Below are positions 4,483 to 37,629 of a stretch of DNA of 45,447 nucleotides, piece by piece. The DNA lies in NCBI GenBank assembly GCA_964527995.1, contig CAZGRP010000025.1, positions 14,998 through 60,444 on the forward strand, given 5' to 3'. The translations under genes were made by a program, and so were the position numbers. This DNA comes from an uncultured Cytophagia bacterium (GTDB lineage Bacteria; Zhuqueibacterota; Zhuqueibacteria; Oceanimicrobiales; CAZGRP01). Position 1 is the first letter of the stretch; the number at the start of each line of letters is the position of its first letter. The notes beneath the pieces are model-generated. The model was not told the origin of the DNA and made no database searches. It saw only the letters and a program-made list of their open reading frames with translations.

Positions 4483-4552
4483 CGCATCACTCGGATAGGT
4501 GGATCGGGTTTTCGAATCGATTCGGTCACACATGCGCGGCTCAAATACCTTG

Positions 4553-13054: not shown

Positions 13055-14803
13055 TTACTGCCGGACGCCAGCCCTGCGCCCCCGGCGTAGGATCGTGATC
13101 GCCCACAGGAGCAAGAACAGCGCCGCCGCACCAACAGCCAGAAACTCGTTGCGCCGGGCGGCGGCCAGCCGCTTCTCGAGGCGACGGAGTTGGCCGATGC
13201 TCAATTCCGCCGCCGGACGCGCTTCGAAGGGCTCAACGCTTGGGGTGGCGAAAATCTCTTCCAGGGCCGGCCACAACTTCTTGCGCGAGATCCCACCCCC
13301 GTCGAAGATCACCACGCCTTCCCCTCCACCCTTGCGCACCGCCTCGATGACCTGCTTCACCTTCTCGCCCGGATAGTACCCGGCAGGTGGATCGGCCCGG
13401 AAAGCCTGCACCGCCTGGATGAGGGCACTCACCTGGTCGGTGCCTGCAGACGGCGACAGTTCGGCAAGTCGTGAAGAGATCGCCTTCTCAGACTCGGGTG
13501 CGAACTGGGCCAGCCGGTCGCGGATCTGCTCAAATCCTTGCCGCAGCGTCCGCAGCCGCCGGCGGCGATCGCGTCGGGGCTTCGTCTCCCATCCCTGAAG
13601 CTCGGTGAGGATGTCCCGCAGCGGCTGGTCTTGCTCGCGGAAGATGTAGTGAACGTCCAACCCGACGGAGAGGTTGGCGAGACCTTTGGACCAGCGCATT
13701 TCGTAGCGGGTGTACTCTTCGAGCTGTTTCAGGAAGGTCTGCCAGTCTGTGAGCGGAAAATGGCTGCGGTACACCATCGGCATCATGATATCGATCCATG
13801 GGGCGAAGTTCGTCCACCGCTGGCCGATGAAGCGGCCGCTGGCGGTGGGATTCTTGAAGACGGCCGCCGACATCTCGATGTCGGGCTTGATAGCTTTGGC
13901 CCGTTCCCAGGCTTCGCGCACAAACCGGGTGATGGCATCGCTGCGGTAGGTGTAGAAGAAGTAGTCCAGGTCGCTGGGGCCCTGAGGCATGTAGCTACCG
14001 GTGAGCAGGAACCGTGCTTTAGCCTTGCGATCCCACTTCTGCCAGTCTTTCGGCTTGACGGTCGGATCCGACCACCAGTTGGCTTCGGGGTTGGGAAGCG
14101 TGGACACCACTGGATATCGGACGTCGGGGAAGGCGTCGTAAGAGAAATGGTTGTACTTCATGACATCCTGCAGGAAGTCGTCGTCAAAGCTGTAGCCGTC
14201 GGGAGCGACGTCGCCCGGGTAGCGCACGTAGTCGTGGTGGATGCCGTCGACATCGTACTTGCGCACAATCTCCTCGATCAGTGGTAGCAGGTACTGATCC
14301 GTGTAGCCCGGACGCTGAGCCGGACTCACCCAGGTGATGTAGTAGGGACGGCCGCCGCTCAGAAACTCGGACGTCGTCGGTTTGCCCTCGGCGTTGACCA
14401 TCAACCATTCAGGGTGCTTCTTGAGCACGGGGTTGTCGGGGCCTTCGGTGAAGTCGCACAACCAGGCATGCAGTTTGATGCCGGCGGCGTGCGACTCGCG
14501 CACCATGGCCGCCAGCGGATCGAAATCCCGGTAGTTCTCGGCGATCATCTCCGGGTTGAGATCGCTGTGGAAAAAGAGTCGGCCGCGCGTATTCTTCACA
14601 TCCATGACGATCACGTTGATGTGGGCCTTCTTGACGTGCTGCACAAAGGCACGCGCCGTGGAGTCATTGGTGATCAAACCGGGTGGATTCAGCCAGACGG
14701 CACGCCCCTCGATGACGGTCTCGCGGTCCTGAGCGCCGACCCGAGCGACCACACCAGTCAGGGCAAGCACAACGATGCTCCCCAGGACAAGCTCTTTTCT
14801 CAC
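13055..14803 (-). CDS. GHL10 (DUF187, YngK-like) glycoside-hydrolase-like TIM-barrel protein, secreted
   Basis: ORF 13055..14881 (-). 'DPLAAMVRESHAAGIKLHAWL' and 'KYDVDGIHHDYVRYPGD' match GHL10 family blocks. The ORF-track start (TTG at 14881) lies inside the plus-strand -35 TTGACA. Start re-placed at GTG 14803, preceded by AAGGAGG-N5, giving signal peptide 'MRKELVLGSIVVLALTGVVARVGAQ'. Confidence 0.6.
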   Translation of the reverse strand: MRKELVLGSIVVLALTGVVARVGAQDRETVIEGRAVWLNPPGLITNDSTARAFVQHVKKAHINVIVMDVKNTRGRLFFHSDLNPEMIAENYRDFDPLAAMVRESHAAGIKLHAWLCDFTEGPDNPVLKKHPEWLMVNAEGKPTTSEFLSGGRPYYITWVSPAQRPGYTDQYLLPLIEEIVRKYDVDGIHHDYVRYPGDVAPDGYSFDDDFLQDVMKYNHFSYDAFPDVRYPVVSTLPNPEANWWSDPTVKPKDWQKWDRKAKARFLLTGSYMPQGPSDLDYFFYTYRSDAITRFVREAWERAKAIKPDIEMSAAVFKNPTASGRFIGQRWTNFAPWIDIMMPMVYRSHFPLTDWQTFLKQLEEYTRYEMRWSKGLANLSVGLDVHYIFREQDQPLRDILTELQGWETKPRRDRRRRLRTLRQGFEQIRDRLAQFAPESEKAISSRLAELSPSAGTDQVSALIQAVQAFRADPPAGYYPGEKVKQVIEAVRKGGGEGVVIFDGGGISRKKLWPALEEIFATPSVEPFEARPAAELSIGQLRRLEKRLAAARRNEFLAVGAAALFLLLWAITILRRGRRAGVRQ

Positions 14804-14863
14804 GGAAACCTCCTTCTCCTCGGCCGGAAGATGATGGGTTCGCTGCGACGGCAGATTGGTAGG

Positions 14864-14941
14864 CGATTTTTTTCTTGACAATGAGGGAAAAGAAAACTAA
14901 ACTTCGTTAACAAAGTTAATCCAAAAGTTGGCACTTGTCAA
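14864..14941. promoter_or_regulatory. divergent back-to-back promoters (plus: TTGACA 14875..14880, 17 bp spacer, TAAACT 14898..14903; minus: TTGACA 14941..14936, 17 bp spacer, TAACTT 14918..14913) sharing the central 18-bp operator AACTTCGTTAACAAAGTT (14900..14917)
   Basis: Read directly. Lies between the GHL10-NPP operon (minus) and the SSF-AKR operon (plus). A/T tracts lie upstream of both -35 elements. Confidence 0.5.
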
Positions 14942-14999
14942 GTGAAAAAATTCTCCCGCCGACGAATCTGCGGGAGAGCGACGACGGGAGAGCCGCTCC

Positions 15000-16772
15000 A
15001 TGACCTTTACCGACTGGACCATCATCGCCCTCTATAGCGTGTTCATGCTGTTTCTTGGTGGGTACTTTACGAAACGCGCCGGCCAAAGCCTGGACGACTA
15101 CTTTCTCGCCGGGCGCGATCTGCCATGGTGGGTGCTGGGGATGTCGGCTGTCGCCTCCTACAGTGACGCTGGCATTGCACCTGCTGTGACCATGCTGGTT
15201 TTTACCGGTGGGCTGCTGGGAAACGGCATCTGGTGGCTGACGTTTCTGATATGGATGCCTCTGGTGGCGGTGGTCTGGTCCAAGCTGTGGCGGCGCCTGA
15301 ACATTCTGACCACCGCAGAATTCATCGAGGTGCGCTACTCCGGGCGGGCGGCCACGGCCTTCCGCGGCATCTACGCCGTGTTCATGGCCTTCGGCTTCGG
15401 TGTCGTTCTCATGGGGTATGTGACGAGCTGGCTCAGCAGCGCCCTTGGCCCGATTCTGGGCTGGTCGCCGCTGGCAATGATGCTGACCTTCGGCGGCCTG
15501 GCGATGATCTACACGACAGCGGCAGGTCTCTTCGGTGCCGCCTACAGCGACGTGCCACAGTTCGTCATCTTCTTCGTGGGCAATTTGATCTTCGTGCCCA
15601 TCCTGATCTCGGCTGTCGGAGGCATGGATGCAGTCTACGACGGCATCCTGCGGATGCGCGGCCCGGAGATGACAGCCGAATTCCTGAAGGTGATCCCGCC
15701 GTCGTCCTCGCTGCCGACCGTCACGATTCTGGCTTTCGTGGTGCAGGGGCTATTCTTCGCTGCCTCACCCGCAGGCGGTGAGGGCTTCACCGCCCAGCGC
15801 TTCATGGCGGCACGCAACGAGTTCCACGCTCAGATCGGACAGTTGCTCAACGCCCTGCTCACCCTGGTGGTCCGCGTCGCCCCTTTTCTGTTCATGGGAA
15901 TGGCCGCGGCCGCCATCTACCCTCCCGACGCTTTCGCCGAGCCGGCCGAGATCTGGGGAACCCTGGTCTCCAGGTACTCGGTGGTAGGGTTGACCGGGTT
16001 GTTGGTTTCCGGGATCATGGCCGCCTACATGTCAACCATCGACACGGAGATCAACTGGAGCGCTTCCTACTTCGTCAACGACATCTACAAGCGGTTTATC
16101 AAAACCGACGCCAGCCGCCAGCACTACGTCCTCGTCAGCCGGGTGACCAGCGTCCTGCTTCTTGTGCTTGCCGTGCTCTTGGCTTATTTTCTGGTCAAGG
16201 GAATGACGGCCTGGTTCCTGTTCATCAACTCAGTGATGGTGGCTTTCTTGTTGCCGCTGAGCTGGCTGCGTTTTTTCTGGTGGCGGCTCAACATCTACGG
16301 TGAGGCCGCCGCCATCGTCGGCAGCCTGCCGCTGGGGTACTTCATCTGGTTTGGCCTGGACTTCCGCGATCGGCCCTTCTGGCAGGGATTCCTGCTCCTC
16401 TTTATTGTGGGTTGGATCGTGATCCTGGCGGTGACCTACCTGACGCGGCCGGAGCGGCCAGAGACATTGCGCGAGTTCTACCTGCGCTGCCGGCCACCGG
16501 GACTCTGGGGTCCGGTGGTACGAACCCTGCCCGGCCATAGCACCGAAGAGGTTCACCGCGAAACCATCGCCGATATCGTGGACAGTGGCTTGGGCATTCT
16601 TTTCTGCGGCGGCAGCATCCTTGCCAGCATCAGCCTGCTGGGCCGGCACTGGATCACCGCCATCGTCGCCGTGCTGGTGACAACGGCAGCGCTGTGGCTG
16701 TTCGTTCTGCGCTGGAAGAAACGCGGGGTGTTTGGAGCGCTGTCGCGTAACTACCGCGAAGGTCCGTCATAG
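15000..16772 (+). CDS. sodium:solute symporter family (SSF/SLC5-like) transporter
   Basis: 590 aa, ~13 predicted TM segments. N-terminal 'DYFLAGRDLPWWVLGMSAVASYSDAG' is the SSF signature region. Confidence 0.75.
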   Translation: MTFTDWTIIALYSVFMLFLGGYFTKRAGQSLDDYFLAGRDLPWWVLGMSAVASYSDAGIAPAVTMLVFTGGLLGNGIWWLTFLIWMPLVAVVWSKLWRRLNILTTAEFIEVRYSGRAATAFRGIYAVFMAFGFGVVLMGYVTSWLSSALGPILGWSPLAMMLTFGGLAMIYTTAAGLFGAAYSDVPQFVIFFVGNLIFVPILISAVGGMDAVYDGILRMRGPEMTAEFLKVIPPSSSLPTVTILAFVVQGLFFAASPAGGEGFTAQRFMAARNEFHAQIGQLLNALLTLVVRVAPFLFMGMAAAAIYPPDAFAEPAEIWGTLVSRYSVVGLTGLLVSGIMAAYMSTIDTEINWSASYFVNDIYKRFIKTDASRQHYVLVSRVTSVLLLVLAVLLAYFLVKGMTAWFLFINSVMVAFLLPLSWLRFFWWRLNIYGEAAAIVGSLPLGYFIWFGLDFRDRPFWQGFLLLFIVGWIVILAVTYLTRPERPETLREFYLRCRPPGLWGPVVRTLPGHSTEEVHRETIADIVDSGLGILFCGGSILASISLLGRHWITAIVAVLVTTAALWLFVLRWKKRGVFGALSRNYREGPS

Positions 16773-16839
16773 CGGTGGCCTTTGCACGCGGCATGGGCGG
16801 CGTACAAAATGAATTTCACCTGAAGGAGGAGGTTGACGA

Positions 16840-17817
16840 ATGGAATACCGCAAGCTCGGCAAATGGGGGGTGCGTGTAAGCACGCTGGGTGTGGGCAGCT
16901 ATCTCACCCTCGGCCATCATGTGCCTGAAGACGTGGGGAGCGAGATCGTCAGACAGGCCTACGAGGCGGGTATCAACTTCTTCGACACTGCCAACGCCTA
17001 CAACCGTGGCGAAGCGGAAAAGGCCTTGGGCAGGTACCTGGCGCCTTTTCCGAGAGACTCCTTTGTGCTGGCGTCCAAAGTCTGGGCTCCCATGGGTGAT
17101 GGCCCGAATGATCGCGGTTTGTCACGCAAGCACATCTTCGAGCAGTGCCACGCCAGCCTGAAACGGCTCAACACCGACTACCTCGACCTCTACCAGTGCC
17201 ACCGCTACGACCCCGACACTCCCCTGGAGGAAACCATCCGGGCCCTGGACGATCTGGTCCGGCAGGGAAAGATCCTCTACTGGGGGGTGAGCGAATGGAG
17301 TGCGGCCCAAATCACCGAGGCCCAGTCGTTCTGTGAACGCTGGGGCCTGAATCCACCAGTCTCCAATCAGCCACGTTACAGCCTTCTTTGGAGATACCCG
17401 GAAAAAGAAGTCTTTCCTGTCTGTCTTTCCAAAGGTCTGGGGCAGGTGGTGTTTTCACCACTGGCCCACGGAGTGCTGACGGGCAAGTACAAGGCGGGCG
17501 AAAAGCCGCCTCCCGGCACCCGCGCCGCTGACGACTCTCAGAACCGCATCATGATGGATCTCTATTTTCACGAAGACAAGCTTCGCAGAGTCGAGCAGAT
17601 GGGCGAAATCGCGGCGGAACTGAATTTGAGCACGGCGCAGCTGGCCATTGCCTGGATCCTGAAGAATCCCGCGGTCAGCAGTGTTATCCTCGGGGTGACG
17701 CGTCCCGAGCAATTGGCGGAGAACTTGAAAGCGGCAGAGGTCGCCCTGCCTGACGAGGTCATGGCTCGACTCGACGAGCTGTTTCCGCTCCCTGGTGCGT
17801 CTCCGGCGGCCCCATGA
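16840..17817 (+). CDS. aldo/keto reductase (AKR, Kv-beta/YghZ-like)
   Basis: 325 aa. 'GINFFDTANAYNRGEAE', 'VLASKV', 'IAWILKNPAVSSVILG' AKR motifs. RBS GAAGGAGGAGG upstream. Confidence 0.8.
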   Translation: MEYRKLGKWGVRVSTLGVGSYLTLGHHVPEDVGSEIVRQAYEAGINFFDTANAYNRGEAEKALGRYLAPFPRDSFVLASKVWAPMGDGPNDRGLSRKHIFEQCHASLKRLNTDYLDLYQCHRYDPDTPLEETIRALDDLVRQGKILYWGVSEWSAAQITEAQSFCERWGLNPPVSNQPRYSLLWRYPEKEVFPVCLSKGLGQVVFSPLAHGVLTGKYKAGEKPPPGTRAADDSQNRIMMDLYFHEDKLRRVEQMGEIAAELNLSTAQLAIAWILKNPAVSSVILGVTRPEQLAENLKAAEVALPDEVMARLDELFPLPGASPAAP

Positions 17818-17897
17818 AACGACGCCGTTCCTCCCTGGCTCACGAGCCAGAAAAGCCGCCCGGGCCGTCCTCTCGCACACCTGCCCGCCAGGATACA

Positions 17898-18870
17898 TCA
17901 GCGACGGGGCGATCCCAGGGCGTCGAGCAGCCCCTTCATGTAGCCCACGGCGTAGAGTCGGCCGAGCATCATGTAGCCAGGCGCCTCGTTCGCTTCCTCT
18001 TCGAGCGTCGGCACGTGGTCGGGTCGGATCGGTCCGTCGAAGCCAACCTCCTCATAGGCTCGCATGGCCTCCGCCATGTCCGTCTTGCCCTCGTCGTGGA
18101 AGGTCTCCTCGAAGGCCGGAACGCTGCCACGGATGTCCCGGAAGTGAGCAAAGAAGATCTTCCCTTGCTCTCCGAAGTGGCGGATGGCCGAGGGTACATC
18201 GACGCCCTCCATGGCTCCGAAGGTCCCCTGGCACAGTGTGATGCCGTTGAAGTCACTCGGCGGCACCATCTCGAGCACGCGGTCGCACGCCTCAATGCTG
18301 CGGAGGATGCGGGCCACTCCACGGATCGGTGAAATCGGCGGATCGTCCGGATGCAGGGCCAGCTTCACTCCTGCCTCCTCAGCGACCGGAACCACTCGCT
18401 TCAGGAAGTACTCGAGGCTATCCCATAATTGCTCCTCCGACACTTCCCCGGCCCAGGTCAGGGGAGCTTTCTCCATCAGGCGGTGGTCGTAGCTGGTGAC
18501 CAGGGCGCCGCCGCGGCCACGCGTGGTCGTGGAGGTCCGCAACCAGTTGAACACGGCCATGAAGTTGTAGCAGAGCACCGGGATGCCGGCTGCGCCCATG
18601 TTGCGGACGGACTGGCAAAAGTTCTCCAGGTCCTCATCCCTTCCCGGCAGGCCGAGTTTGATCCGGTCGGAGATCGGGATGCTCTCGATGACTGACAGGG
18701 TCAGCCCGGCATCCTCCACCCTCTTGCGCAGTTGCAGCAAAGGCAGGAACTCCCAAACCGGTCCCCGCTGCGCCTCCGGTAACACGGTGACGATGTCGGT
18801 GACGCCGATCTGCCTGGCAAGCCGCAGGTTAGATTCAGAAAGCGAACGCAGGAACAAAGCGATTCTCATG
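17898..18870 (-). CDS. uxuA: mannonate dehydratase
   Basis: ORF 17898..18956 (-). Strong similarity in motif order to UxuA ('CYNFM.VF.W.RT', 'LALHPDDPP', 'GPIRPDH', 'GYMMLGRLYA'). Start placed at ATG 18870, with GAGGAG 6 nt upstream. Confidence 0.8.
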
Positions 18871-19088
18871 CTCATCTCCTCATCGAAATTGGCCCTGCTA
18901 CGCGAACCCGTATAGCTACAAACCGCCGCCGCCCCTTCGTCGTTCCAACCGCTCACTTCCCTGAAGAAGGGCGTCCCTCGTCGTCTGTGGCCGCTCTCCG
19001 GTGACCCTACGCCATGGCCTCAACGGGTCTGCGACTCTGATACCTTAGGAGCCAGCCGCTCCCGGGCTCACCACTGCTTCCGCAGGAG

Positions 19089-20732: not shown

Positions 20733-20782
20733 GAGTCCTCCTTTGCGCTTGAGAGTTCATCGCGGATGGAGTCTTCGGAATT

Positions 20783-20870
20783 CGATTTTTTGCTTGACAA
20801 TGAGAAAGGAAATGTTATTTTCGGACTAACTTAACTAAACTAACTTAGTTATTCGTTTTCAAACTGTCAA
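20783..20870. promoter_or_regulatory. divergent promoters (minus: A-tract, TTGACA 20870..20865, 17 bp spacer, TAAGTT 20847..20842; plus: conserved module with TTGACA 20795..20800) flanking operator-like AACTT/AAGTT repeats (20825..20852, including AACTTAGTT)
   Basis: Read directly. Lies between the T9SS-protein-uxuA unit (minus) and the alpha/beta-hydrolase ... Gfo unit (plus). The first 22 nt of the plus-strand module (CGATTTTTTGCTTGACAATGAG) match 14864..14885 at 21 of 22 positions. Confidence 0.45.
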
Positions 20871-20900
20871 GGATTTTTCCAGAGAAGCGGAGTTGAGCAA

Positions 20901-22154: not shown

Positions 22155-22329
22155 TGGAAGACGGGGACGCAAGCCGGATGAGGGGTGATGGCGGGTGGGC
22201 GCGGATTTTGGGCTGTGGATTGCCTACTGCCAACTGCCTCACCCGGGGAGCCGAGGCTGTGCCCAACTGATGACGGCGGCCAACGGAATGAACCCGATAC
22301 CTGGAACCCCAATAACCCACGTCTCAGCC

Positions 22330-23673: not shown

Positions 23674-23691
23674 CGGCAAGGATAGCGCACG

Positions 23692-24768: not shown

Positions 24769-24846
24769 GTTGCCACCGAATGGGTTGGGAGCCACGGCGA
24801 AGGCTGTGCGCTCTCTGAACCAGATACTGCAAAGGGTGCCGTCTAC

Positions 24847-27075: not shown

Positions 27076-27167
27076 GAAAAACGGGGCGCGCAATTGGAAA
27101 ACCGCGTCGGACCACGGGAAGGTCCGTGAGCATGCGCCGACTGCCAGGCTCCTGAAAGGAGGTATGA

Positions 27168-28442: not shown

Positions 28443-28445
28443 GTC

Positions 28446-31400
28446 ATGCTGCTTCGGCGTTTCGGCACATTTCTCCGTATTCTGTCCGCATTATTGATCG
28501 CAAGTCAACCACTATGGGCACAGGGGCCTGCGGTTGTCTACGAAGCCTACACGTTCAGGCAGGATTTCGAGAGCGGCGAGAACACCGGTTGGGCCAGCTA
28601 TCCACCGGCGCAGGACACCGCCTACGATCCCGGCCTCTACCCCACCTCGGAGACGCATCCAGCCGGCAGCCAATATGCGCTGATGCGCGAGCGCCGGCAG
28701 GGATTCGTCGGCCCGCTCGATATCGGCGTGATCCGCAAAGTGCGCCTGCGTGTCACCGAACAATCCACCCTGCGATTCGATTTCAATCTCAAAGACTACG
28801 GCGGCGCCAGCAGCTTCGAGGCCGTCGTCGCGGCTGCCGACGGCAAACAGTATCACTATGCCGTGCCGGCCTGGCAAAGCGGCCAGTGGCAGACAGTCAC
28901 AGCCCCACTCTCCAGGTTTGTGGCCCAGGGACAGGCTCTGCCCTCTGGAGCGGAAGTGCAGGCGATCTATTTCAAGGCGACCATCCCGGAGAGCGACCCG
29001 GATGTCGTCTATCGACTGGCTGTCGACAATGTCGAGCTCACAGGGCAGCGAAAGGCCGACTTCCAGATCTTGCAGCCCGAAACCGCCTACCTGGAGCACT
29101 GGCACCGCTGGGTTTCAGTCAGGCATTATCACCGCGGCGAGAATGTGCTGATTCAGGTAACGCCGCCGAAAGCAGCCGGTCGCCTGAAGGAAGCCTGGGC
29201 CAGCCTCTACGCGCCGAACGGCGCACAGGTGGTGAAGAAGAGGCGTTTGCAACGCGTTGACACAGGATCCCCGGTCGGGCGGTGGGGTACCTCAGGGCTG
29301 TACCGCATCCGCTCCAACGATCCCTTCGGAATCTGGCGAGTGGAGGTTGGCGGTAAGGATCGCCGTGGACGGAGCATTTCTACCTCGATGACCTTCTGGG
29401 TGACGCCTGAGCCTGGCCGCCTGGGTCATCCGCGGCTTTTCTTCAGCGCCAACGACGTCCCCCGCTATCAGGCCCTCGCCGCCGGTGCCGGCAAGCAGCT
29501 CTGGCAAAAGCTCGTCGATAAGGCGGCGAAGCTGAGGCAGGAACTGAACCTCGACCGCATCCGGGGAGCACAGATCGGCGCCATGGACCGGCGCTTCCTG
29601 CTGCCGACTCTGCGCGGATATTTCGACATCATCTCCCCGCTCACTGACTTTCTGGGCACCAACTCTATCGTGTACGCCATCACCGGCGACGATACGGTCG
29701 GCAACGCTCTGAAAGATGCCGTGCTGGCCGCGGCGCAAATGGAACAGTGGACCCCTCCCTGGTTCGTAACCCGCGGCCAGCCGACTTATTATCCCATCGG
29801 CCGACTGGCGTACCAGGTAGCCTTCGCCTACGACGTGCTCTACAACCGCCTGAGCCAGGAGGAACGCCAGGTGATTCGGGACGGGCTGAGGCGTCTGATC
29901 ATCCAGCCGGCATATCAGGAGTATGTCGTGGACAATCGCGTCCCCTTCAGCACCAGCAACTGGATCTGCCACGTCACTGGCGGCGCACTGCTGGCCGCGA
30001 CCTCCATCTACGGAGACGATCCAAATCAGGGAGATCTCGAGCCCTACCTTTCCGGACTGCTGGCAAAAATGACCACCGTGATCTCCTCCACCCTCGGACC
30101 GGCCGGAAGCTGGGGCGAAGGCTACAGCTATGAACGTTTCGCCTTCGAATCACTGACCCCGGCGCTGGCGGCGCTGGAACGAAATTTCGACATCCGCGTT
30201 TTCGACCGAACTCCTCTGGCGAACGCCTTGTACTTGCCGCTCTATGCCTACAGCGCGCCCGAATTGCTCGATTTCGGAGACACCTCAGATCATCTCTACA
30301 GCAGCGGTCCCTTCGCCTGGCTGGCGTGGCGTGCCGCAAACCCCTACTGGAAATGGTTCAACGAGCAGGCTGGTAGGAACGATGTGCAGAGCTTTATCTG
30401 GTTTGCCCCGGAGTTGTCCGCGAAGGCTCCAGCCGATCTGCCAACCTCACGCTACTTCCCCAAAGTGGGCAGCGCTGTATTTCGCACCGGATGGTCGCCT
30501 GACGACATTCTCTTCCACTTCCGTGCCGGGCCGTTCGTCAACCATCAGCACTTCGACCAGGGCAGCTTCCTGCTGCAGGCCTTCGGCGAGGCCCTGGTGA
30601 CCGAAGGCGGTAAGAGCCACTACTACGACGACCCGTACTACCAGACCTACTTCATCCAGGCTGCGGGTCACAACACGGTGCTGATCAACGGCAATCCCGG
30701 AAGCCAGCGCAGCGGTGATCTAAGAAGCGACGCGGTCGCTCTGGACAGCTCAGCAGCCATCACCGACCACCTGACCACACCGTTCCTCGACATGGTCTCC
30801 GCCCGCCTCGAACGCCTGTACCGTGGGAAACTCAGTCGGTTCGAACGCACGGTTCTCTTCCTGAAGCCGGACTACTTTGTCATCTTCGATCGCCTGCGCT
30901 CAACCGGCGAGCCGCTCACCTATGACTGGCTGCTGCACGGTCCCAGGTACGATGGCCTACGAGTCAACACCGCGTATGCGGAAATCGCCGGCAAGCGGGC
31001 GAGTCTCCTGGTCAAGGTGGTCGCGCCTTCGGACGCACAGGTGGAAAGGAAAGAGGCACCCATCCCCATCGCTGAGGTGCTGCACCCAGAGTCTCCTGGC
31101 CTGCGAGTCCCGGGTTACTTCCAGGTGAGCAACCCCACGCCGAGGGTGAGCGAGGAGTTCCTCGTGGTTCTCTACCCGGAACGCCGCCCCGCCACCGATG
31201 GCGCGGCAGAGAGGCAGATGCAGCGGTTGGCCCAGCGGGTTGTGAGGATCGAGGCAGAGGGTTTCGTCGGCGTCGAAGTGACTCGCGGCGAGGCTGTCGA
31301 CCGCATCTACTTTCGCAGCCAAGACGGGAAGCGGATTCTGCAGGATGCCGATCTCACAGCGGATGCTGCTGCTTTGGCTGTCACCCGGGAACAAGGAGCG

Positions 31401-31685
31401 CTGCGACGCGTTTTCTTGCGCAGCGGCACCTTCGTTCAAGTCTCCGGCGAAAAGCTTCTGGCCACGGATCGGCCCCTGACGGCAACAGCCCTGCTGACGC
31501 AGGGGCAAGCCCGATGGCAGTTCAATTCGCCCGAAGCCACCAGTGTCTCCCTCACCCTGCCTGCCGCACCGGGCAGCGTCAGGATGGACGGGAAGCCTGT
31601 TCGGCGAGTCAACTTCAGCAAGAGCGAGGGGCGTCTGCGACTCTACCTCCCGGCAGGGCAACACAGTCTCGAACTAGCGTACTGA
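28446..31685 (+). CDS. secreted heparinase II/III-like polysaccharide lyase family protein with N-terminal beta-sandwich and alginate-lyase-like (alpha/alpha) domains
   Basis: 1079 aa. Signal 'LRILSALLIASQPLWAQG'. C-terminal block 'VNHQHFDQGSFLLQAFGEALVTEGG...AAGHNTVLINGNPGSQR' matches the heparinase II/III-like domain (H..D.GSF / HNT). The preceding (alpha/alpha) toroid region begins 'HPRLFFSANDVPRYQ'. Confidence 0.65.
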   Translation: MLLRRFGTFLRILSALLIASQPLWAQGPAVVYEAYTFRQDFESGENTGWASYPPAQDTAYDPGLYPTSETHPAGSQYALMRERRQGFVGPLDIGVIRKVRLRVTEQSTLRFDFNLKDYGGASSFEAVVAAADGKQYHYAVPAWQSGQWQTVTAPLSRFVAQGQALPSGAEVQAIYFKATIPESDPDVVYRLAVDNVELTGQRKADFQILQPETAYLEHWHRWVSVRHYHRGENVLIQVTPPKAAGRLKEAWASLYAPNGAQVVKKRRLQRVDTGSPVGRWGTSGLYRIRSNDPFGIWRVEVGGKDRRGRSISTSMTFWVTPEPGRLGHPRLFFSANDVPRYQALAAGAGKQLWQKLVDKAAKLRQELNLDRIRGAQIGAMDRRFLLPTLRGYFDIISPLTDFLGTNSIVYAITGDDTVGNALKDAVLAAAQMEQWTPPWFVTRGQPTYYPIGRLAYQVAFAYDVLYNRLSQEERQVIRDGLRRLIIQPAYQEYVVDNRVPFSTSNWICHVTGGALLAATSIYGDDPNQGDLEPYLSGLLAKMTTVISSTLGPAGSWGEGYSYERFAFESLTPALAALERNFDIRVFDRTPLANALYLPLYAYSAPELLDFGDTSDHLYSSGPFAWLAWRAANPYWKWFNEQAGRNDVQSFIWFAPELSAKAPADLPTSRYFPKVGSAVFRTGWSPDDILFHFRAGPFVNHQHFDQGSFLLQAFGEALVTEGGKSHYYDDPYYQTYFIQAAGHNTVLINGNPGSQRSGDLRSDAVALDSSAAITDHLTTPFLDMVSARLERLYRGKLSRFERTVLFLKPDYFVIFDRLRSTGEPLTYDWLLHGPRYDGLRVNTAYAEIAGKRASLLVKVVAPSDAQVERKEAPIPIAEVLHPESPGLRVPGYFQVSNPTPRVSEEFLVVLYPERRPATDGAAERQMQRLAQRVVRIEAEGFVGVEVTRGEAVDRIYFRSQDGKRILQDADLTADAAALAVTREQGALRRVFLRSGTFVQVSGEKLLATDRPLTATALLTQGQARWQFNSPEATSVSLTLPAAPGSVRMDGKPVRRVNFSKSEGRLRLYLPAGQHSLELAY

Positions 31686-31698
31686 CCAAGGAGCAACG

Positions 31699-32727
31699 AT
31701 GGAGAAGTTGGGTATTGGAGTCATCGGACTCGGCATCATGGGCCGGCAGTATCTCACCGTGTACCAGCGAAATCCCAACACCGAGGTCCGCGCCGTGGCC
31801 AATCGTTCGTCCCAGCGACTCGCCCAGGTGGCGTCGGACTTCGGTATCGATGAGCGGAATCGATACCAGGACTACAGGAAGTTGCTGGAGCGAGCCGATG
31901 TCGATGCGGTTTGCGTGGCCACTCCCGATTTTGCCCACACCGAGATCGTGCTGGACGCCCTCGACGCCGGCAAACACGTGCTCGTGGAGAAACCGATGAC
32001 AACTTCCACTGCCGAGGCCGACCGCATCGTTTCCAGGGTGCGGGACACAGGGCTGAAGCTGCAGGTGGCGTACAATCACCGCTGGCTGCCGGTCTACTAC
32101 CACGCGCACTCCCTCATCAAAAGTGGCGAAATCGGCGATCCGGTCATGGGATTCGCCCGCAAGAACGACACCCTCTTCGTTGCCACAGAGATGATCAACT
32201 GGGCGGCACAAACCTCGCCGACCTACTTCCTGAACTCCCACGATGTCGACCTCATGCGCTGGTACTTCGACAGCGAGGCGGTGGAGGCACGGGGCTACGG
32301 CCGTAAGGGGGTCCTCAGCGCCCGTGGCATCGATGCTTACGATGTGGTGCAGGGCCAGGTGAAATTCGCCAACGGCGCCTTCGCCACCTTCGAGTCCGGA
32401 TGGATCTATCCGAACACCTTCCCGACCATCGTCGACTCCTTTGTGGAAGTGATCGGCACGCGAGGGCATCTACATCTGCCGCGCAAGGCAGAATCGATGG
32501 AGATGAGCACTGAGAAGGCCTTCACCTACCCGCGGACTCTGTTGTTCAACGACATCTTCGGCCAACTCGGCGGGGCTTTTCCCGCCTGCCTGAATCATTT
32601 CGTCGAGTGCATTCTGCAGGACCGTGAGCCGGTAACGAATGCTGTCGAAGGCCGCCAGGTGACGGCGATCCTCGAGGCCATCATGACGTCGGTGGAGCGG
32701 GGCGGTGAGACGGTGAAGGTGAAGTGA
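31699..32727 (+). CDS. Gfo/Idh/MocA-family oxidoreductase (3 of 3)
   Basis: 342 aa. 'LGIGVIGLGIMGRQY', 'GKHVLVEKPMT'. 13 bp after the lyase-like gene. Confidence 0.8.
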   Translation: MEKLGIGVIGLGIMGRQYLTVYQRNPNTEVRAVANRSSQRLAQVASDFGIDERNRYQDYRKLLERADVDAVCVATPDFAHTEIVLDALDAGKHVLVEKPMTTSTAEADRIVSRVRDTGLKLQVAYNHRWLPVYYHAHSLIKSGEIGDPVMGFARKNDTLFVATEMINWAAQTSPTYFLNSHDVDLMRWYFDSEAVEARGYGRKGVLSARGIDAYDVVQGQVKFANGAFATFESGWIYPNTFPTIVDSFVEVIGTRGHLHLPRKAESMEMSTEKAFTYPRTLLFNDIFGQLGGAFPACLNHFVECILQDREPVTNAVEGRQVTAILEAIMTSVERGGETVKVK

Positions 32728-32799
32728 CGGCAGCAATGACTGGAGACAGGCGTAACCAGGACCGAGAACCATGGCCAATACCGGAGGAAAAGAGAGCCG

Positions 32800-33735
32800 A
32801 TGAGACTGCTGACGTTTGAAACGAAAGGACAAACACGGATCGGGGCGCTGATACAGGGTGACAGGGTTGTCGATCTCAACCGCGCCGCCCAGGAGCTGCT
32901 CGGTCTCTCAGGAGGGGCACCTCTGGGTGAGGACATGCGTGCATTCCTTTCGGCCGGAGAGGGTGCCGCGCAGGCTGCCGCGCAGATCATCTCTCGAATC
33001 GAAGAGCTGCTCGACTCGAATGCCGCGGCTGTTCCAGCGGACACTCTCTTCGATCTGGCGGCCGTGAGGCTGCGTGCGCCCATCACCAATCCTCAGAAGA
33101 TTCTCGCGGTGGGACTCAACTACCGCGATCACTGCGAGGAAAACCACCTCGACCCGCCGGAACACCCGATCATGTTCGCCAAGTTGACGTCCGCCGTCAT
33201 CGGCCCTGGTGACCCCATCTTGTGGCCACCCGAGGTGACCGATCAGGTCGATTATGAAGCCGAGTTCGCCTTCGTGGTGGGCCGGCAGGCGCGTTCCATC
33301 TCTGTCGACGAGGCCCTGGACTATGTTTTCGGGTATACAATCCTCAACGACGTCTCGGCGCGCGATCTGCAATTCGCCGACGGCCAGTGGGTGCGGGCCA
33401 AATCACTCGACACCTTCTGCCCCATCGGCCCGACGCTGGTCAGCATGGACGAGTTCCCCTACCCTCCTGCGCTCGAGATCAGTTGTAGCGTCAACGGCCG
33501 CAGGCTGCAACATTCCAACACCCGCCACCTGATTTTCGGCGTGGCCGATCTGCTGAGCTTCATCAGCCAGACCTGCACCCTCTATCCAGGGGACATCGTT
33601 TCCACCGGCACACCCGGAGGCGTCGGCTACTACCAGAAGCCGCAGGTCTTCCTGAAGCCGGGCGACGAGGTGACGGTTGAAATCGAAGGACTCGGCGCGC
33701 TGACCAACCCCGTGGGAACGTGGCGGCGGGAGTAG
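32800..33735 (+). CDS. fumarylacetoacetate-hydrolase (FAH) family protein, likely a 2-keto-3-deoxy sugar-acid dehydratase/hydratase
   Basis: 311 aa. 'KILAVGLNYRDHCEE', 'YEAEFAFVVG', 'GYTILNDVSARDLQ', 'GDIVSTGTPGGVG' are characteristic FAH-fold blocks. Confidence 0.75.
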   Translation: MRLLTFETKGQTRIGALIQGDRVVDLNRAAQELLGLSGGAPLGEDMRAFLSAGEGAAQAAAQIISRIEELLDSNAAAVPADTLFDLAAVRLRAPITNPQKILAVGLNYRDHCEENHLDPPEHPIMFAKLTSAVIGPGDPILWPPEVTDQVDYEAEFAFVVGRQARSISVDEALDYVFGYTILNDVSARDLQFADGQWVRAKSLDTFCPIGPTLVSMDEFPYPPALEISCSVNGRRLQHSNTRHLIFGVADLLSFISQTCTLYPGDIVSTGTPGGVGYYQKPQVFLKPGDEVTVEIEGLGALTNPVGTWRRE

Positions 33736-37617: not shown

Positions 37618-37629
37618 CAAATGCAGTGC

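What the first reader, a model, noticed from the sequence alone, without database searches (positions are those of the whole stretch)
13055..33735. Non-canonical uronate/glycan utilisation island in a T9SS-bearing, GC-rich FCB-group bacterium
The window co-localises a secreted heparinase II/III-like lyase, GHL10 and DUF4434-like TIM-barrel glycosidase-like proteins, and a Tat-lipoprotein AGE-fold (alpha/alpha)6 protein that could act as an unsaturated-uronyl hydrolase. It also carries UxuA, a PfkB (KdgK-like) kinase, three Gfo/Idh/MocA dehydrogenases, an FAH-family keto-deoxy-acid hydratase and an AKR. Transport is covered by an SSF symporter and an Nramp-fold transporter. Two T9SS-sorted proteins are present. 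There are no SusC/SusD genes, so this is not a classical Bacteroidetes PUL. By established pathway knowledge the enzymes map onto lyase-mediated depolymerisation of a uronic-acid-containing polymer followed by the glucuronate to mannonate to KDG (UxuA) to KDPG (KdgK) route. The Gfo plus FAH pairs point to an additional oxidative, non-phosphorylative sugar-acid branch.
Basis: partly seen in the sequence, partly recalled or inferred. Interest (0 to 1): 0.55.

Follow-up and report, generated by a model that had tools for sequence, protein, structure and literature searches.

The report
Conserved acidic-glycan breakdown gene cluster

Summary
The PfkB kinase, one Gfo gene and one T9SS protein lie outside the stated coordinates. 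Two genes were not named: a CE15-like esterase and a DMFA2_C/T9SS protein.

The 1079-aa "heparinase" has the toroid plus beta-sandwich lyase fold. Its Asn505/Tyr562/His700 triad and metal site are invariant in 76 relatives. It is at most 20% identical to any solved PL family, and its N-terminal domain is family-specific.

In 77 related loci from several phyla, these genes recur beside it: Gfo, FAH, SSF, a Tat-exported AGE epimerase, a Tat-exported CE15-like esterase, GHL10, a ceramidase-like amidase and a DegT aminotransferase. UxuA, AKR and PfkB never recur.

The AGE protein keeps all epimerase catalytic residues, so it is not a GH88/GH105 substitute. The Nramp-like protein lacks the metal-binding motifs.

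A palindrome, TAAC-N3-GTTA, occurs exactly three times in the window: at the ROK regulator promoter and at both divergent promoters. This suggests one regulon. UxaC, UxuB and Eda are absent.

Best reading: periplasmic breakdown of a uronate- and N-acyl-amino-sugar-containing glycan, followed by a non-canonical Gfo/FAH route. The substrate is unknown.

The parts
225..1628 (-). Ceramidase_alk-like Zn-amidase (CERA). No signal peptide, so cytoplasmic. The likely true start is GTG at about 1532, overlapping the DegT stop codon.
   Evidence: Pfam PF04734, E = 3e-18. Homologues in 39/77 related loci, usually at the head of the operon. The GIHDDL and THTHAGP motifs are seen in homologues.
1529..2788 (-). 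DegT/DnrJ/EryC1-family PLP aminotransferase, the orthologue of the module's DegT.
   Evidence: Pfam, 365 bits. Best NCBIfam hits are LegC/ArnB/PseC-type sugar aminotransferases, all below cut-off. Found in 26/77 loci at a median 46% identity.
2788..4611 (-). SurA-like double-PPIase lipoprotein. It is co-directional between the ROK gene and DegT. It is specific to this window and not part of the conserved module.
   Evidence: Pfam Rotamase/SurA_N. N-terminus ...LWAVASGCS. Found in 0/77 loci.
4553..5788 (-). ROK-family repressor with an N-terminal winged HTH (NagC/Mlc-like). It is the candidate regulator of the cluster.
   Evidence: Pfam ROK plus HTH_24/MarR. NCBIfam NagC 210 bits and Mlc 193 bits, both below cut-off. 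The palindromic operator lies about 80 bp upstream of its start.
5866..5887 (.). Operator copy 1: TTAACCAAGTTAA plus an overlapping degenerate copy.
   Evidence: TAAC-N3-GTTA occurs 3 times in the window against 0.06 expected; 0 of 100 shuffles reach 3.
13055..14881 (-). GHL10/DUF4015/GHL6 TIM-barrel glycosidase-like protein with an N-terminal signal and a C-terminal membrane anchor.
   Evidence: Pfam, 81.7 bits. Best solved relative is Cwp19, a peptidoglycan lytic transglycosylase, E = 8e-9. Found in 27/77 loci, directly upstream of the lyase in Pyrinomonadaceae.
14869..14945 (.). Divergent promoter region between GHL10 and SSF. It holds TTTTTCTTGACAATGAG, operator copy 2 (14898-14919) and an inverted TGTCAAG.
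   Evidence: The best sigma-70-like match in the 20-kb scan is at 14875-14903 (10 of 12 positions).
15000..16772 (+). SSF Na+/solute symporter.
   Evidence: Pfam, 107.6 bits. Nearest solved relatives are vSGLT and SiaT. Found in 44/77 loci at a median 58% identity, often in two copies.
16840..17817 (+). Aldo/keto reductase. Window-specific addition.
   Evidence: Pfam, 275 bits. Found in 1/77 loci.
17898..18956 (-). Mannonate dehydratase UxuA, short form. Window-specific addition.
   Evidence: NCBIfam PRK03906, 278 bits against a cut-off of 191; TIGR00695, 202.2 against 199.55. Found in 0/77 loci.
19089..20732 (-). DMFA2_C-domain protein with a FlgD_ig/T9SS type-A sorting tail. Window-specific addition.
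   Evidence: Pfam, 269 bits. TIGR04183, 34.4 bits against a cut-off of 23. Found in 0/77 loci.
20788..20880 (.). Divergent promoter region between DMFA2_C and CE15. It holds TTTTGCTTGACAATGAG, operator copy 3 (20831-20852) and an inverted TGTCAAG.
   Evidence: Sigma-70-like match at 20794-20821 (10 of 12 positions).
20901..22154 (+). CE15 glucuronoyl-esterase-like alpha/beta hydrolase with a Tat signal (MQRRAFLK). It carries GHSHG where the CE15 consensus is GCSRxG.
   Evidence: Pfam GCE_fung, 52.5 bits. Best solved relatives are bacterial CE15 enzymes, about 1e-13. Found in 36/77 loci, all listed homologues with RR motifs.
22327..23673 (+). AGE-family 2-epimerase/isomerase exported as a Tat lipoprotein.
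   Evidence: Best solved relatives 6f04 and 2gz6, E = 7e-42 and 5e-39. R57, H239, E242, E308, H372 and R375 of 2gz6 are all matched. 98 of 111 homologues with a full N-terminal extension carry a Tat-like RR motif. Found in 31/77 loci at a median 62% identity.
23692..24768 (+). Gfo/Idh/MocA oxidoreductase (Gfo2), a window-specific paralogue with no signal peptide.
   Evidence: Pfam. Best NCBIfam hit is IolG, 172 bits, below cut-off.
24847..27075 (+). DUF4434 protein: signal peptide, Ig-like domain, then a GH42/GH164/GH35-like three-domain glycosidase architecture. Invariant Glu260 and Glu356 sit at the ends of predicted barrel strands.
   Evidence: Pfam, 38 bits. AF2 model pLDDT 84. Foldseek top hits are a GH42 beta-galactosidase (2.5e-22) and a GH164 beta-mannosidase (6e-20). 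Invariant residues. It is the last gene of many Pyrinomonadaceae operons.
27168..28442 (+). Nramp-fold transporter lacking the canonical metal-binding motifs. It ends 3 bp before the lyase gene.
   Evidence: Pfam, 134 bits. The TM1 region reads ...AGIMGAGS... instead of DPGN, and no MPH motif is present. It sits directly upstream of the lyase in L001, L002 and L005.
28446..31685 (+). Central enzyme (HEP). Domain order: Sec signal; two family-specific beta domains (about 30-320); (alpha/alpha) toroid (335-650); beta-sandwich (665-1079). Catalytic Asn505, Tyr562 and His700; metal site His702, Asp704, Glu720 and His742.
   Evidence: Pfam and PDB sequence hits. AF2 model pLDDT 87.7. Foldseek hits all lyases of this fold plus DS-epi1. 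Residue mapping. Invariance in 76 sequences. The N-terminal domain is found in only 146 of 1.84 billion representative proteins.
31699..32727 (+). Gfo/Idh/MocA oxidoreductase (Gfo3), the module orthologue, cytoplasmic.
   Evidence: Found in 45/77 loci at a median 57% identity. Nearest solved relatives are DgpA, an aldose-aldose oxidoreductase and GFOR, about 1e-22.
32800..33735 (+). FAH-family enzyme (C-C hydrolase, decarboxylase or dehydratase type), cytoplasmic.
   Evidence: Pfam, 254 bits. Best NCBIfam hit is 2,4-didehydro-3-deoxy-L-rhamnonate hydrolase, 233 bits against a cut-off of 500. PDB hits are HpaG and L-2,4-diketo-3-deoxyrhamnonate hydrolase. Found in 34/77 loci.

Best explanation
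The region is the larger part of a single regulon. It carries a gene module conserved across phyla for the periplasmic breakdown and uptake of an acidic glycan that also contains N-acyl amino sugar.

What is shown:
- The central 1079-aa secreted protein is a toroid plus beta-sandwich enzyme of the PL15/17/21/35/39 and dermatan-sulfate-epimerase superfamily.
- It has a complete Asn/Tyr/His proton-abstraction site and a His/Asp/Glu/His metal site.
- It belongs to a rare family of its own, marked by a family-specific N-terminal double beta-domain.

What is inferred about the pathway:
1. In the periplasm, the CE15-like esterase (Tat-exported) frees esterified uronate carboxylates.
2. The membrane-anchored GHL10 protein and the GH42/GH164-like DUF4434 protein cut glycosidic bonds.
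3. The lyase-like enzyme removes the C5 proton of a 4-linked uronate and eliminates the glycosidic bond. There is no His next to the neutralising Asn, which favours a GlcA-type substrate over an alginate- or IdoA-type one.
4. The Tat-exported AGE enzyme epimerises or isomerises C2 of a released reducing-end (N-acyl)hexose.
5. Products enter through the SSF symporter and the Nramp-fold carrier that lacks metal-binding motifs.
6. In the cytoplasm, the conserved Gfo3 plus FAH pair oxidises and then cleaves or dehydrates the keto-deoxy acid. This is a non-phosphorylative route like the one for L-rhamnonate and L-fuconate.
7. The ceramidase-like amidase and the DegT aminotransferase de-acylate and de-aminate the amino sugar.

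AKR, UxuA and the T9SS DMFA2_C protein are additions specific to this organism. They are recruited to the same regulon and may feed mannonate into KDG. A ROK/NagC-like repressor binding TAAC-N3-GTTA probably controls all units.
For: - Gene families.
- Lyase fold and active site: AF2 model pLDDT 87.7. All top Foldseek hits are lyases of this fold or DS-epi1. Asn505, Tyr562, His700, His702, Asp704, Glu720 and His742 align with the mutationally validated residues of PL35 GAGase II and of heparinase II. They are conserved in 73-76 of 76 family members.
- Conserved module: in 77 loci from Acidobacteriota, Ignavibacteria, Latescibacterota, Verrucomicrobiota and others, the lyase is accompanied by Gfo3 (45), SSF (44), CERA (39), CE15-like (36), FAH (34), AGE (31), GHL10 (27) and DegT (26). 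In Pyrinomonadaceae it forms one co-directional operon: TBDR > CERA > Gfo > SSF > FAH > SSF > GHL10 > HEP > CE15 > BadF-kinase > SIS > CutC > M20 > DegT > AGE > DUF4434.
- Amino-sugar link: a NagK-like BadF kinase, a SIS isomerase, M20 or PIG-L deacylases and a PNGase-F-like protein appear in variants of the module. The window has a NagC-like ROK regulator. The characterised GHL10 member cuts peptidoglycan glycan.
- Export pattern: there are Tat motifs on the AGE homologues (98 of 111) and on all listed CE15-like homologues. CERA, Gfo, FAH and DegT have no signal peptide.
- Regulon: TAAC-N3-GTTA occurs exactly three times against 0.06 expected, all at promoters (ROK, GHL10|SSF, DMFA2_C|CE15). 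These coincide with the two best sigma-70-like matches and a shared 17-nt box.
Against: - No enzyme activity is known for any member of this lyase family. Dermatan-sulfate epimerase has the same fold and residues, so lyase and C5-epimerase cannot be told apart here.
- The cluster has no GH88/GH105, KduI/KduD, KdgF or Eda, so the fate of an unsaturated uronate is entirely inferred.
- DegT enzymes normally act on nucleotide-sugars or inososes in biosynthesis.
- A cytoplasmic ceramidase-like amidase has no precedent in glycan catabolism that I could find.
- An AGE enzyme in the periplasm has no known role.
- The CE15-like protein lacks the consensus Arg of GCSRxG.
- The BadF, SIS, CutC and M20 genes of the acidobacterial operon are absent from this window.
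- The substrate cannot be named. The operator-regulator assignment is inferred from position only.
Confidence: 0.55

Rival explanations
1. A heparinase-type lyase depolymerises a uronate polymer, the AGE-fold protein acts as an unsaturated-uronyl hydrolase, and the monomer runs through the classical isomerase pathway: glucuronate to fructuronate to mannonate (then UxuA) to KDG (then KdgK) to KDPG.
For: UxuA is genuine and passes both NCBIfam cut-offs. It lies behind a promoter that carries the shared operator. A PfkB kinase exists in the window.
Against: - No UxaC, UxuB or Eda is present in 45 kb.
- PfkB scores best as fructokinase (115 bits) against 38 bits for KdgK. It lies in a separate operon with aminotransferases and an FAD oxidase, beyond a tRNA gene, and that operon has no operator.
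- UxuA and PfkB occur in 0/77 related loci and AKR in 1/77.
- The AGE protein keeps every epimerase residue and has no GH88/GH105 signature.
Confidence: 0.12
2. The module scavenges cell-wall or necromass amino sugars (peptidoglycan glycan strands, teichuronic acids, N-glycans). The lyase-fold protein plays an accessory role or a non-lyase one, such as C5-epimerase or binding. The amino-sugar branch is the main flux.
For: - The characterised GHL10 protein is a peptidoglycan glycan-cleaving enzyme (Cwp19).
- Variants of the module carry a NagK-like kinase, a SIS isomerase, M20, PIG-L and PNGase-F-like genes.
- AGE is an N-acyl-hexosamine epimerase family.
- The regulator is NagC-like.
- The taxa involved are soil and sediment heterotrophs.
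Against: - The lyase-fold protein is the most constant element by construction of the search, so its centrality is partly circular.
- Its catalytic site is fully invariant, which argues for catalysis on a carboxylate-bearing sugar.
- A conserved CE15-like esterase and the Gfo plus FAH pair fit an acid-sugar branch.
- No NagZ, amidase or MurQ equivalent was identified in the window.
Confidence: 0.2
3. The module is not catabolic. It modifies or remodels the cell's own envelope polysaccharide: the toroid enzyme acts as a polymer-level C5-epimerase like DS-epi1, DegT and Gfo act in amino-sugar biosynthesis, and GHL10 acts as an autolysin.
For: DS-epi1 is a strong structural match (E = 8e-21) and Pfam now names the N-terminal region DSE-like_N. 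DegT and Gfo pairs are classic biosynthetic partners. GHL10 members act on the cell's own wall.
Against: - One or two SSF importers and, in Acidobacteria, a TonB-dependent receptor head the operon.
- An FAH C-C-cleaving enzyme, a sugar kinase and deacylases are present.
- There are no glycosyltransferases, flippases or nucleotide-sugar enzymes in any variant.
- A sugar-responsive ROK repressor architecture is present.
Confidence: 0.08
4. The grouping is an annotation coincidence: unrelated carbohydrate genes that happen to be neighbours.
For: The genes lie on both strands. Several of them (UxuA, AKR, DMFA2_C, Gfo2) are not conserved with the rest.
Against: The recurrence across phyla of eight gene families next to the lyase. 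The 3-92 bp spacing of the CE15-to-FAH run, apart from about 170 bp before AGE. The shared operator and promoter boxes.
Confidence: 0.03

Closest known systems
PL35 'GAGases' (GAGase II, PDB 8KHV) and heparinase II (PL21, 2FUQ)
   Same: Same two-domain catalytic core, (alpha/alpha) toroid plus antiparallel beta-sandwich. Same Asn (Glu in HepII) / Tyr / His triad and same His-x-His-x-Asp...Asp/Glu...His metal loop.
   Different: Only 17-20% identity (E = 1.7e-17 and 1.2e-15). About 300 extra N-terminal residues form two family-specific beta domains with an invariant WxSYPPAQD motif. There is no His at the HepII His202 position. The substrate is unknown.
Exolytic oligo-alginate lyases and PL39 (Atu3025 PL15, 3A0O; Alg17c PL17; Dp0100 PL39, 6JP4)
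   Same: These are the best overall structural matches (Foldseek E = 8e-33 to 1e-17). Atu3025 (from memory) and the PL15 exo-heparinase 6LJA also have an N-terminal beta domain in front of the toroid.
   Different: Alginate lyases have a His adjacent to the neutralising Asn, and that His is required for alginate cleavage (PMC12088678). This family has Ser504-Asn505-Trp506 instead. No DEH reductase, KdgK or Eda lies nearby.
Human dermatan-sulfate epimerase 1 (6HZN)
   Same: Same fold and, from memory, the same His/Tyr/His chemistry. Pfam labels the N-terminal part of the toroid region DSE-like_N.
   Different: DS-epi1 is a biosynthetic, polymer-level epimerase. Here the gene context is transporters plus catabolic enzymes.
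Bacteroidetes polysaccharide utilisation loci for glycosaminoglycans (heparin/heparan and chondroitin PULs)
   Same: A secreted lyase plus accessory hydrolases and esterases, uptake, and a sugar-responsive regulator. In Acidobacteria a TonB-dependent receptor heads the operon.
   Different: No SusC/SusD pair, no GH88, no sulfatases in the conserved set, and no KduI/KduD/KdgK/Eda. Instead there are an exported AGE, Gfo plus FAH, a ceramidase-like amidase and DegT.
Non-phosphorylative L-rhamnose/L-fucose pathways (keto-deoxy-acid 4-dehydrogenase plus FAH-family 2,4-diketo-3-deoxy-acid hydrolase, e.g. LRA5/LRA6; PDB 8GSR)
   Same: A dehydrogenase next to an FAH enzyme whose best named matches are L-2,4-diketo-3-deoxyrhamnonate hydrolases.
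   Different: The dehydrogenase here is Gfo/Idh/MocA rather than SDR. No enolase-superfamily dehydratase is conserved, and a lactonase-family (Amidohydro_2) gene appears only in a few variants. The FAH score is far below the equivalog cut-off (233 against 500).
Cytoplasmic N-acyl-D-glucosamine 2-epimerases (Anabaena AGE 2GZ6, Nostoc 6F04)
   Same: Full-length homology with all catalytic residues kept.
   Different: This subfamily carries a twin-arginine signal, and in the window also a lipobox. It is therefore predicted to work outside the cytoplasm. Its NCBIfam AGE score is 193 against a cut-off of 600.

Membership tests
Polysaccharide-lyase superfamily with (alpha/alpha) toroid plus beta-sandwich fold (PL8/12/15/17/21/33/35/39) | Two-domain fold: (alpha/alpha)n toroid followed by an antiparallel beta-sandwich. 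| tested here: met
   AF2 model pLDDT 87.7, pTM 0.87. The top 44 Foldseek PDB hits are all lyases of this fold or DS-epi1.
Polysaccharide-lyase superfamily with (alpha/alpha) toroid plus beta-sandwich fold (PL8/12/15/17/21/33/35/39) | Catalytic Tyr and His Bronsted pair plus an Asn/Glu neutraliser of the uronate carboxylate. | tested here: met
   Asn505, Tyr562 and His700 align to Asn192, Tyr246 and His401 of 8KHV and to Glu205, Tyr257 and His406 of 2FUQ. All three are 76/76 invariant.
Polysaccharide-lyase superfamily with (alpha/alpha) toroid plus beta-sandwich fold (PL8/12/15/17/21/33/35/39) | Metal-binding loop (His, Asp, Asp/Glu, His) in the beta-sandwich. | tested here: met
   His702, Asp704, Glu720 and His742 align with His403, Asp405 and Asp421 of 8KHV and with His408, Asp425 (offset by one residue) and His451 of HepII. 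They are conserved in 73-76 of 76 sequences.
Polysaccharide-lyase superfamily with (alpha/alpha) toroid plus beta-sandwich fold (PL8/12/15/17/21/33/35/39) | Demonstrated beta-elimination, i.e. an unsaturated product absorbing at 232 nm. | not testable with these tools
   No characterised member of this subfamily was found.
A specific CAZy PL family (PL12, PL15, PL17, PL21, PL33, PL35 or PL39) | Family-level sequence similarity to a founding member. | tested here: inconclusive
   Best phmmer E-values are 1.7e-17 (PL35), 1.2e-15 (PL21) and 1.2e-14 (PL15), with 11-20% identity to all. No family stands out. dbCAN was not available.
AGE (N-acyl-D-glucosamine 2-epimerase) family | Pfam PF07221 above the gathering score, with full-length homology to solved AGEs. 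| tested here: met
   81.3 bits against a gathering score of 23.4. 6F04 E = 7e-42 and 2GZ6 E = 5e-39 over the whole domain.
AGE (N-acyl-D-glucosamine 2-epimerase) family | Catalytic His pair and Arg/Glu substrate residues (2GZ6 R57, H239, E242, E308, H372, R375; residue roles recalled from Lee et al. 2007, not re-read). | tested here: met
   All six positions are identical in the phmmer alignment.
AGE (N-acyl-D-glucosamine 2-epimerase) family | NCBIfam equivalog score for GlcNAc 2-epimerase, and the cytoplasmic location of known members. | tested here: not met
   NF052547 scores 193 bits against a cut-off of 600. There is a Tat motif and a lipobox in the window protein, and RR motifs in 98 of 111 homologues.
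   No such Pfam hit at E <= 0.01. All solved relatives with E below 0.1 are AGE or cellobiose 2-epimerases.
CE15 glucuronoyl esterases | Pfam GCE_fung above cut-off and homology to solved CE15 enzymes. | tested here: met
   52.5 bits against 27. OtCE15A and others at about 1e-13, over the C-terminal half only.
CE15 glucuronoyl esterases | The G-C-S-R-x-G nucleophile motif with its Arg (motif recalled from memory). | tested here: not met
   The window protein reads IGHSHGAY where 8Q6S reads IGHSRLG. The Ser is kept and the Arg is replaced by His.
Classical Bacteroidetes PUL | An adjacent SusC-like TonB-dependent transporter and a SusD-like lipoprotein. | tested here: not met
   No Plug, TonB-receptor or SusD hit in any ORF of 150 aa or more in the window. 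Acidobacterial versions have a TonB-dependent receptor, and no SusD-type family was noted among the recurrent neighbour families that were annotated.
Isomerase pathway for hexuronates (UxaC-UxuB-UxuA-KdgK-Eda) | Presence of all five steps. | tested here: not met
   Only UxuA is present. UxaC, UxuB and Eda are absent from the window. PfkB scores 38 bits against KdgK and 115 bits against fructokinase.
Nramp divalent-metal transporters | The DPGN (TM1) and MPH (TM6) metal-binding motifs (recalled from memory). | tested here: not met
   The sequence reads ...TAGIMGAGS... and has no MPH. Pfam fold membership is met at 134 bits.
Clan GH-A-type glycosidase (GH42/GH164/GH35-like), for the DUF4434 protein | A (beta/alpha)8 barrel with two catalytic Glu residues at the ends of strands 4 and 7. 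| tested here: inconclusive
   The fold is met: Foldseek GH42 2.5e-22 and GH164 6e-20. Invariant Glu260 and Glu356 follow predicted strands 252-258 and 350-356. However, model coordinates could not be inspected.
GHL10 (Cwp19-type) | Pfam PF02638 above cut-off and homology to Cwp19. | tested here: met
   81.7 bits against 27.9. 5OQ2, E = 8e-9.

The most novel reading that the evidence does not exclude
The module is an undescribed catabolic pathway spread across phyla. It would comprise a new polysaccharide-lyase family with a dedicated N-terminal domain, a periplasmic Tat-exported AGE epimerase acting on lyase products, and a Gfo plus FAH oxidative C-C-cleavage route that replaces GH88, KduI/KduD, KdgK and Eda. 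An N-deacylase and a DegT transaminase would handle the amino sugar.

A more specific sub-reading, with probability of 0.1 or less, is that the target is the GlcN(Ac)-alpha-1,4-GlcA head group. That is the linkage type heparinases cut. It occurs in heparosan-like capsules and in plant and fungal glycosyl-inositol-phosphoryl-ceramides. This sub-reading would also account for the IolG-like Gfo enzymes, the ceramidase-like amidase and the PIG-L variants.
Probability: 0.35. Interest if true: 0.75.

Novelty: new variant of a known kind. Interest (0 to 1): 0.5.

Why it matters
Lyase-based glycan utilisation loci are well known. This one pairs an uncharacterised and apparently unclassified lyase-fold family with partners that have no described role in uronate catabolism: a secreted AGE epimerase, a Gfo/FAH pair, a ceramidase-like amidase and an Nramp-fold carrier without a metal site.

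The module is conserved in abundant but poorly cultured soil and sediment lineages (Pyrinomonadaceae, Bryobacteraceae, Vicinamibacterales, Latescibacterota, Aminicenantes, Ignavibacteria). Identifying its substrate would name a carbon source these groups compete for. It could also yield a new PL family, a new fate for unsaturated uronates and a first function for exported AGE enzymes. The predicted operator gives a direct experimental handle on induction.

Tried and rejected
- **AGE as a GH88/GH105 surrogate.** Rejected: all epimerase residues are kept and all top solved relatives are epimerases.
- **Nramp protein as a Mn/Zn supplier for the metal-dependent lyase.** Rejected: the DPGN and MPH motifs are missing.
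- **PfkB as KdgK of the pathway.** Rejected on score, on location beyond a tRNA gene, on absence of the operator and on absence from all 77 related loci.
- **'Island' in the sense of horizontal acquisition.** No compositional support; GC is 0.60-0.65 throughout.
- **Riboswitch or other RNA upstream of the transporters.** Rfam finds only a tRNA.
- **Literature searches.** I searched for the gene combination, for UPF0309/PRK02947, for DUF4434 and for Tat-exported AGE. Nothing relevant came back.
- **Taxon of the source.** The identical proteins are on a 60,444-bp NCBI contig, but no name or accession was returned. 'FCB group' therefore rests only on the two T9SS type-A sorting domains and on gene order resembling an Ignavibacterium MAG (L005).
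- **Operator in related DNA.** The palindrome is not present in the 63%-related contig L001, so its conservation is untested.
- **BadF, SIS, CutC, M20 and TonB-receptor genes of the acidobacterial operon.** Searched for in the window and not found.
- **Peptidoglycan (MurNAc) as the lyase substrate.** Considered and set aside: the lactyl carboxylate offers no leaving group for this beta-elimination chemistry. This is reasoning only.

Full report
**1. Observation**

I mapped the 45.4-kb window by ORF listing and by Pfam and NCBIfam scans.

- Between 13055 and 33735 lie: GHL10(-), SSF(+), AKR(+), UxuA(-), a DMFA2_C protein with a T9SS tail(-), a CE15-like esterase(+), AGE(+), Gfo(+), DUF4434(+), an Nramp-fold protein(+), the 1079-aa DUF4962/Hepar_II_III_C protein(+), Gfo(+) and FAH(+).
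- The PfkB kinase (42682-43668), the third Gfo (10781-11755) and the second T9SS protein (M6 peptidase, 34692-36956) lie outside the stated coordinates.
- No SusC/SusD or other TonB-dependent receptor is encoded in the window.
- GC is flat at 0.60-0.65, so 'island' can only mean 'cluster'.
- The N-termini read directly from the translations show: a Sec signal on the 1079-aa protein; a twin-arginine motif plus LAGC lipobox on AGE; a twin-arginine motif on the CE15-like protein; signals on GHL10 and DUF4434; and none on the Gfo, FAH, AKR or ceramidase-like proteins.

**2. The central enzyme**

- The 1079-aa protein has only weak sequence matches to solved lyases: PL35 8KHV 1.7e-17, PL21 heparinase II 1.2e-15, PL15 Atu3025 1.2e-14.
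- An AlphaFold model built on 15 homologues is confident, with pLDDT 87.7 and pTM 0.87. It shows a signal helix, two beta domains (about 30-320), an (alpha/alpha) toroid (335-650) and a large beta-sandwich (665-1079).
- Foldseek against the PDB returns only lyases of this fold (PL39, PL15, PL21, PL35, PL17, PL33, PL12, PL8) and human dermatan-sulfate epimerase 1, at 11-20% identity.
- I used the residue roles established by mutagenesis for PL35 GAGases (PMC12088678) and the printed alignments to 8KHV and 2FUQ. On that basis Asn505 corresponds to the neutraliser (Asn192 in PL35, Glu205 in HepII). Tyr562 corresponds to Tyr246/Tyr257, and His700 to His401/His406.
- His702, Asp704, Glu720 and His742 correspond to the metal ligands.
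- In an alignment of 76 family members these positions are conserved in 73-76 sequences.
- The position of HepII His202, and the position next to the Asn, which alginate lyases fill with His, is Asn, Ser or Thr here. By the argument in PMC12088678, this favours a GlcA-type substrate over an IdoA- or alginate-type one. That step is inference.
- The N-terminal 300 residues carry an invariant WxSYPPAQD motif. They were found in only 146 of 1.84 billion representative proteins, nearly always at the N-terminus of proteins of about 1000-1100 residues.

The protein is therefore a catalytically intact member of the lyase/epimerase superfamily, but it belongs to a rare family of its own. No characterised member was found.

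**3. Comparative genomics**

- Contexts of four database homologues and 73 loci from species-representative genomes were compared with all window proteins by tblastn. They were also compared by clustering of their ORFs.
- Counts of loci carrying each partner, out of 77 and with many contigs truncated: Gfo3 45 (median 57% identity), SSF 44 (58%), ceramidase-like amidase 39, CE15-like 36 (49%), FAH 34, AGE 31 (62%), GHL10 27, DegT 26.
- DUF4434 (8) and Nramp (4) are less frequent. DUF4434 is under-counted, because it is the last gene of operons that run past the 10-kb flank.
- UxuA, DMFA2_C, PfkB, the phosphodiesterases, the FAD oxidase and the AP_endonuc_2 protein never accompany the lyase. AKR does so once.
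- In Pyrinomonadaceae the genes form one co-directional operon: TBDR > CERA > Gfo > SSF > FAH > SSF > GHL10 > HEP > (unknown) > CE15 > BadF-type NagK-like kinase > SIS (PRK02947) > CutC > M20 amidohydrolase > DegT > AGE > DUF4434.
- Other variants add a PNGase-F-like protein, a Tat-signal PIG-L deacetylase, an Amidohydro_2 protein or PhyH.
- The closest relative of the window (L001, 63% identity) has the order CE15 > PNGaseF-like > AGE > DUF4434 > Nramp > HEP > Gfo > FAH, essentially the window's order.
- The record titles span Acidobacteriota (several orders), Ignavibacterium, Latescibacterota, Verrucomicrobiota, Balneolaceae and others.

**4. The accessory proteins**

- **AGE.** Its best solved relatives are authentic GlcNAc 2-epimerases. 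All six catalytic or substrate residues of 2GZ6 are matched (residue roles are recalled from the literature). Among 111 close homologues with a full N-terminal extension, 98 carry a Tat-like RR motif. This is an exported epimerase/isomerase, not a GH88/GH105 surrogate. I found no description of such an enzyme.
- **CE15-like.** Homology to bacterial CE15 enzymes covers the catalytic half, at about 1e-13. The nucleophile motif is GHSHG rather than GCSRxG. All homologues listed have RR signals.
- **GHL10.** Its nearest solved relative is Cwp19, a peptidoglycan lytic transglycosylase.
- **DUF4434.** An AF2 model (pLDDT 84) matches a GH42 beta-galactosidase, a GH164 beta-mannosidase and a GH35-type enzyme. 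It has invariant Glu260 and Glu356 at the ends of barrel strands.
- **Nramp-fold protein.** It lacks the DPGN and MPH metal-site motifs. An organic solute is therefore more likely than a metal.
- **Gfo3 and FAH.** Gfo3 is equidistant from DgpA, an aldose-aldose oxidoreductase and GFOR. FAH is closest to HpaG and to L-2,4-diketo-3-deoxyrhamnonate hydrolase.
- **PfkB.** It scores best as fructokinase.

**5. Regulation**

- The two divergent intergenic regions, GHL10|SSF and DMFA2_C|CE15, share a 17-nt box, TTTT(T/G)CTTGACAATGAG, and an inverted TGTCAAG about 60 bp away. Between them lies the palindrome TAAC-N3-GTTA.
- That palindrome occurs exactly three times in the window against 0.06 expected. 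The third copy lies about 80 bp upstream of the ROK/NagC-like regulator gene.
- Each copy has a degenerate partner 9 bp away.
- The two best sigma-70-like matches in a 20-kb scan fall on these boxes.
- The ROK gene is followed co-directionally by a SurA-like lipoprotein, then DegT, then the ceramidase-like gene, with overlapping stop and start codons.
- The conserved module members would thus fall into one putative regulon together with AKR, UxuA and the DMFA2_C protein. The PfkB operon and Gfo1 carry no site.
- All of this is positional inference. The motif is absent from L001.

**6. Interpretation**

The evidence supports a catabolic, envelope-located system acting on a glycan that carries a uronate-type carboxylate (lyase site, CE15-like esterase). 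The glycan very probably also carries an N-acyl amino sugar. The evidence for the amino sugar is AGE, the recurrent deacylases of three different folds, the NagK-like kinase and SIS in the fullest operons, the NagC-like regulator, and the precedents for GHL10.

The conserved cytoplasmic partner is Gfo plus FAH. This suggests oxidation followed by C-C cleavage or dehydration of a keto-deoxy acid, as in the non-phosphorylative 6-deoxyhexose pathways. It does not point to the isomerase pathway, whose UxaC, UxuB and Eda steps are missing.

In this organism AKR plus UxuA may add a reductive branch, for example mannuronate to mannonate to KDG. That is speculation.

The polymer cannot be named. Lyase and C5-epimerase activity cannot be told apart in silico.

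**7. Verdict**

This is a new variant of a known kind of system. It contains a probably unclassified lyase family and an unusual exported epimerase. Interest is moderate (0.5).

Noticed in passing
window 5866-5887, 14869-14945, 20788-20880, and a degenerate copy at 39-56: A shared promoter/operator architecture. The palindrome TAAC-N3-GTTA occurs 3 times against 0.06 expected and is flanked by back-to-back TTGACA boxes. It lies at the ROK regulator promoter and at both divergent promoters of the cluster. A fourth, degenerate pair sits at the left edge of the window, which suggests the regulon continues beyond it.
   Followed up: partly
window 37848-43668 (-): A separate minus-strand operon: PfkB (fructokinase/IolC-like), a class-V aminotransferase with a Tat signal (PvdN-like, 152 bits), a second DegT aminotransferase, an AP_endonuc_2 TIM-barrel protein and a DAO-family FAD oxidase. 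It looks like an amino-sugar, aminocyclitol or Amadori-compound pathway. It has no operator site and is not linked to the lyase in other genomes.
   Followed up: partly
window 6029-13033: Three type-I phosphodiesterase/NPP-family proteins sit between the two halves of the module. One is a Band7-Phosphodiest-TPR fusion of 839 aa, one is 640 aa, and one is a 401-aa sulfatase/PehA-like protein. A third Gfo oxidoreductase lies here too. None is conserved with the module and none has the operator.
   Followed up: no
window 37531-37618 (-): tRNA-Leu(CAA). It explains the spurious 168/182-aa ORFs at 37083-37631, and it separates the cluster from the PfkB operon.
   Followed up: yes
window 19089-20732 (-): A T9SS-sorted protein whose catalytic part is an N,N-dimethylformamidase-beta-subunit-like C-terminal domain (269 bits). 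This may be a secreted amidase, sitting upstream of UxuA behind the shared operator. No homologue occurs in related loci.
   Followed up: no
loci L038, L045, L046, L065 ('Eubacteriales'-labelled and Aminicenantes MAGs): Two to four tandem paralogues of the lyase-fold gene sit in one locus, sometimes with an AGE gene at the end. This suggests diversification of substrate range in these lineages.
   Followed up: no
window 34114-34593 (+) and L001 15648-16127: A 159-aa lipoprotein-like ORF with no family match follows FAH both in the window and in the 63%-related contig. An M6/T9SS peptidase follows it in the window.
   Followed up: no
window 44509-45354 (-): A SAM hydroxide adenosyltransferase (SAM_HAT_N/C) and an M50 peptidase lie at the head of the PfkB-containing gene run. 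They are unrelated to the finding.
   Followed up: no
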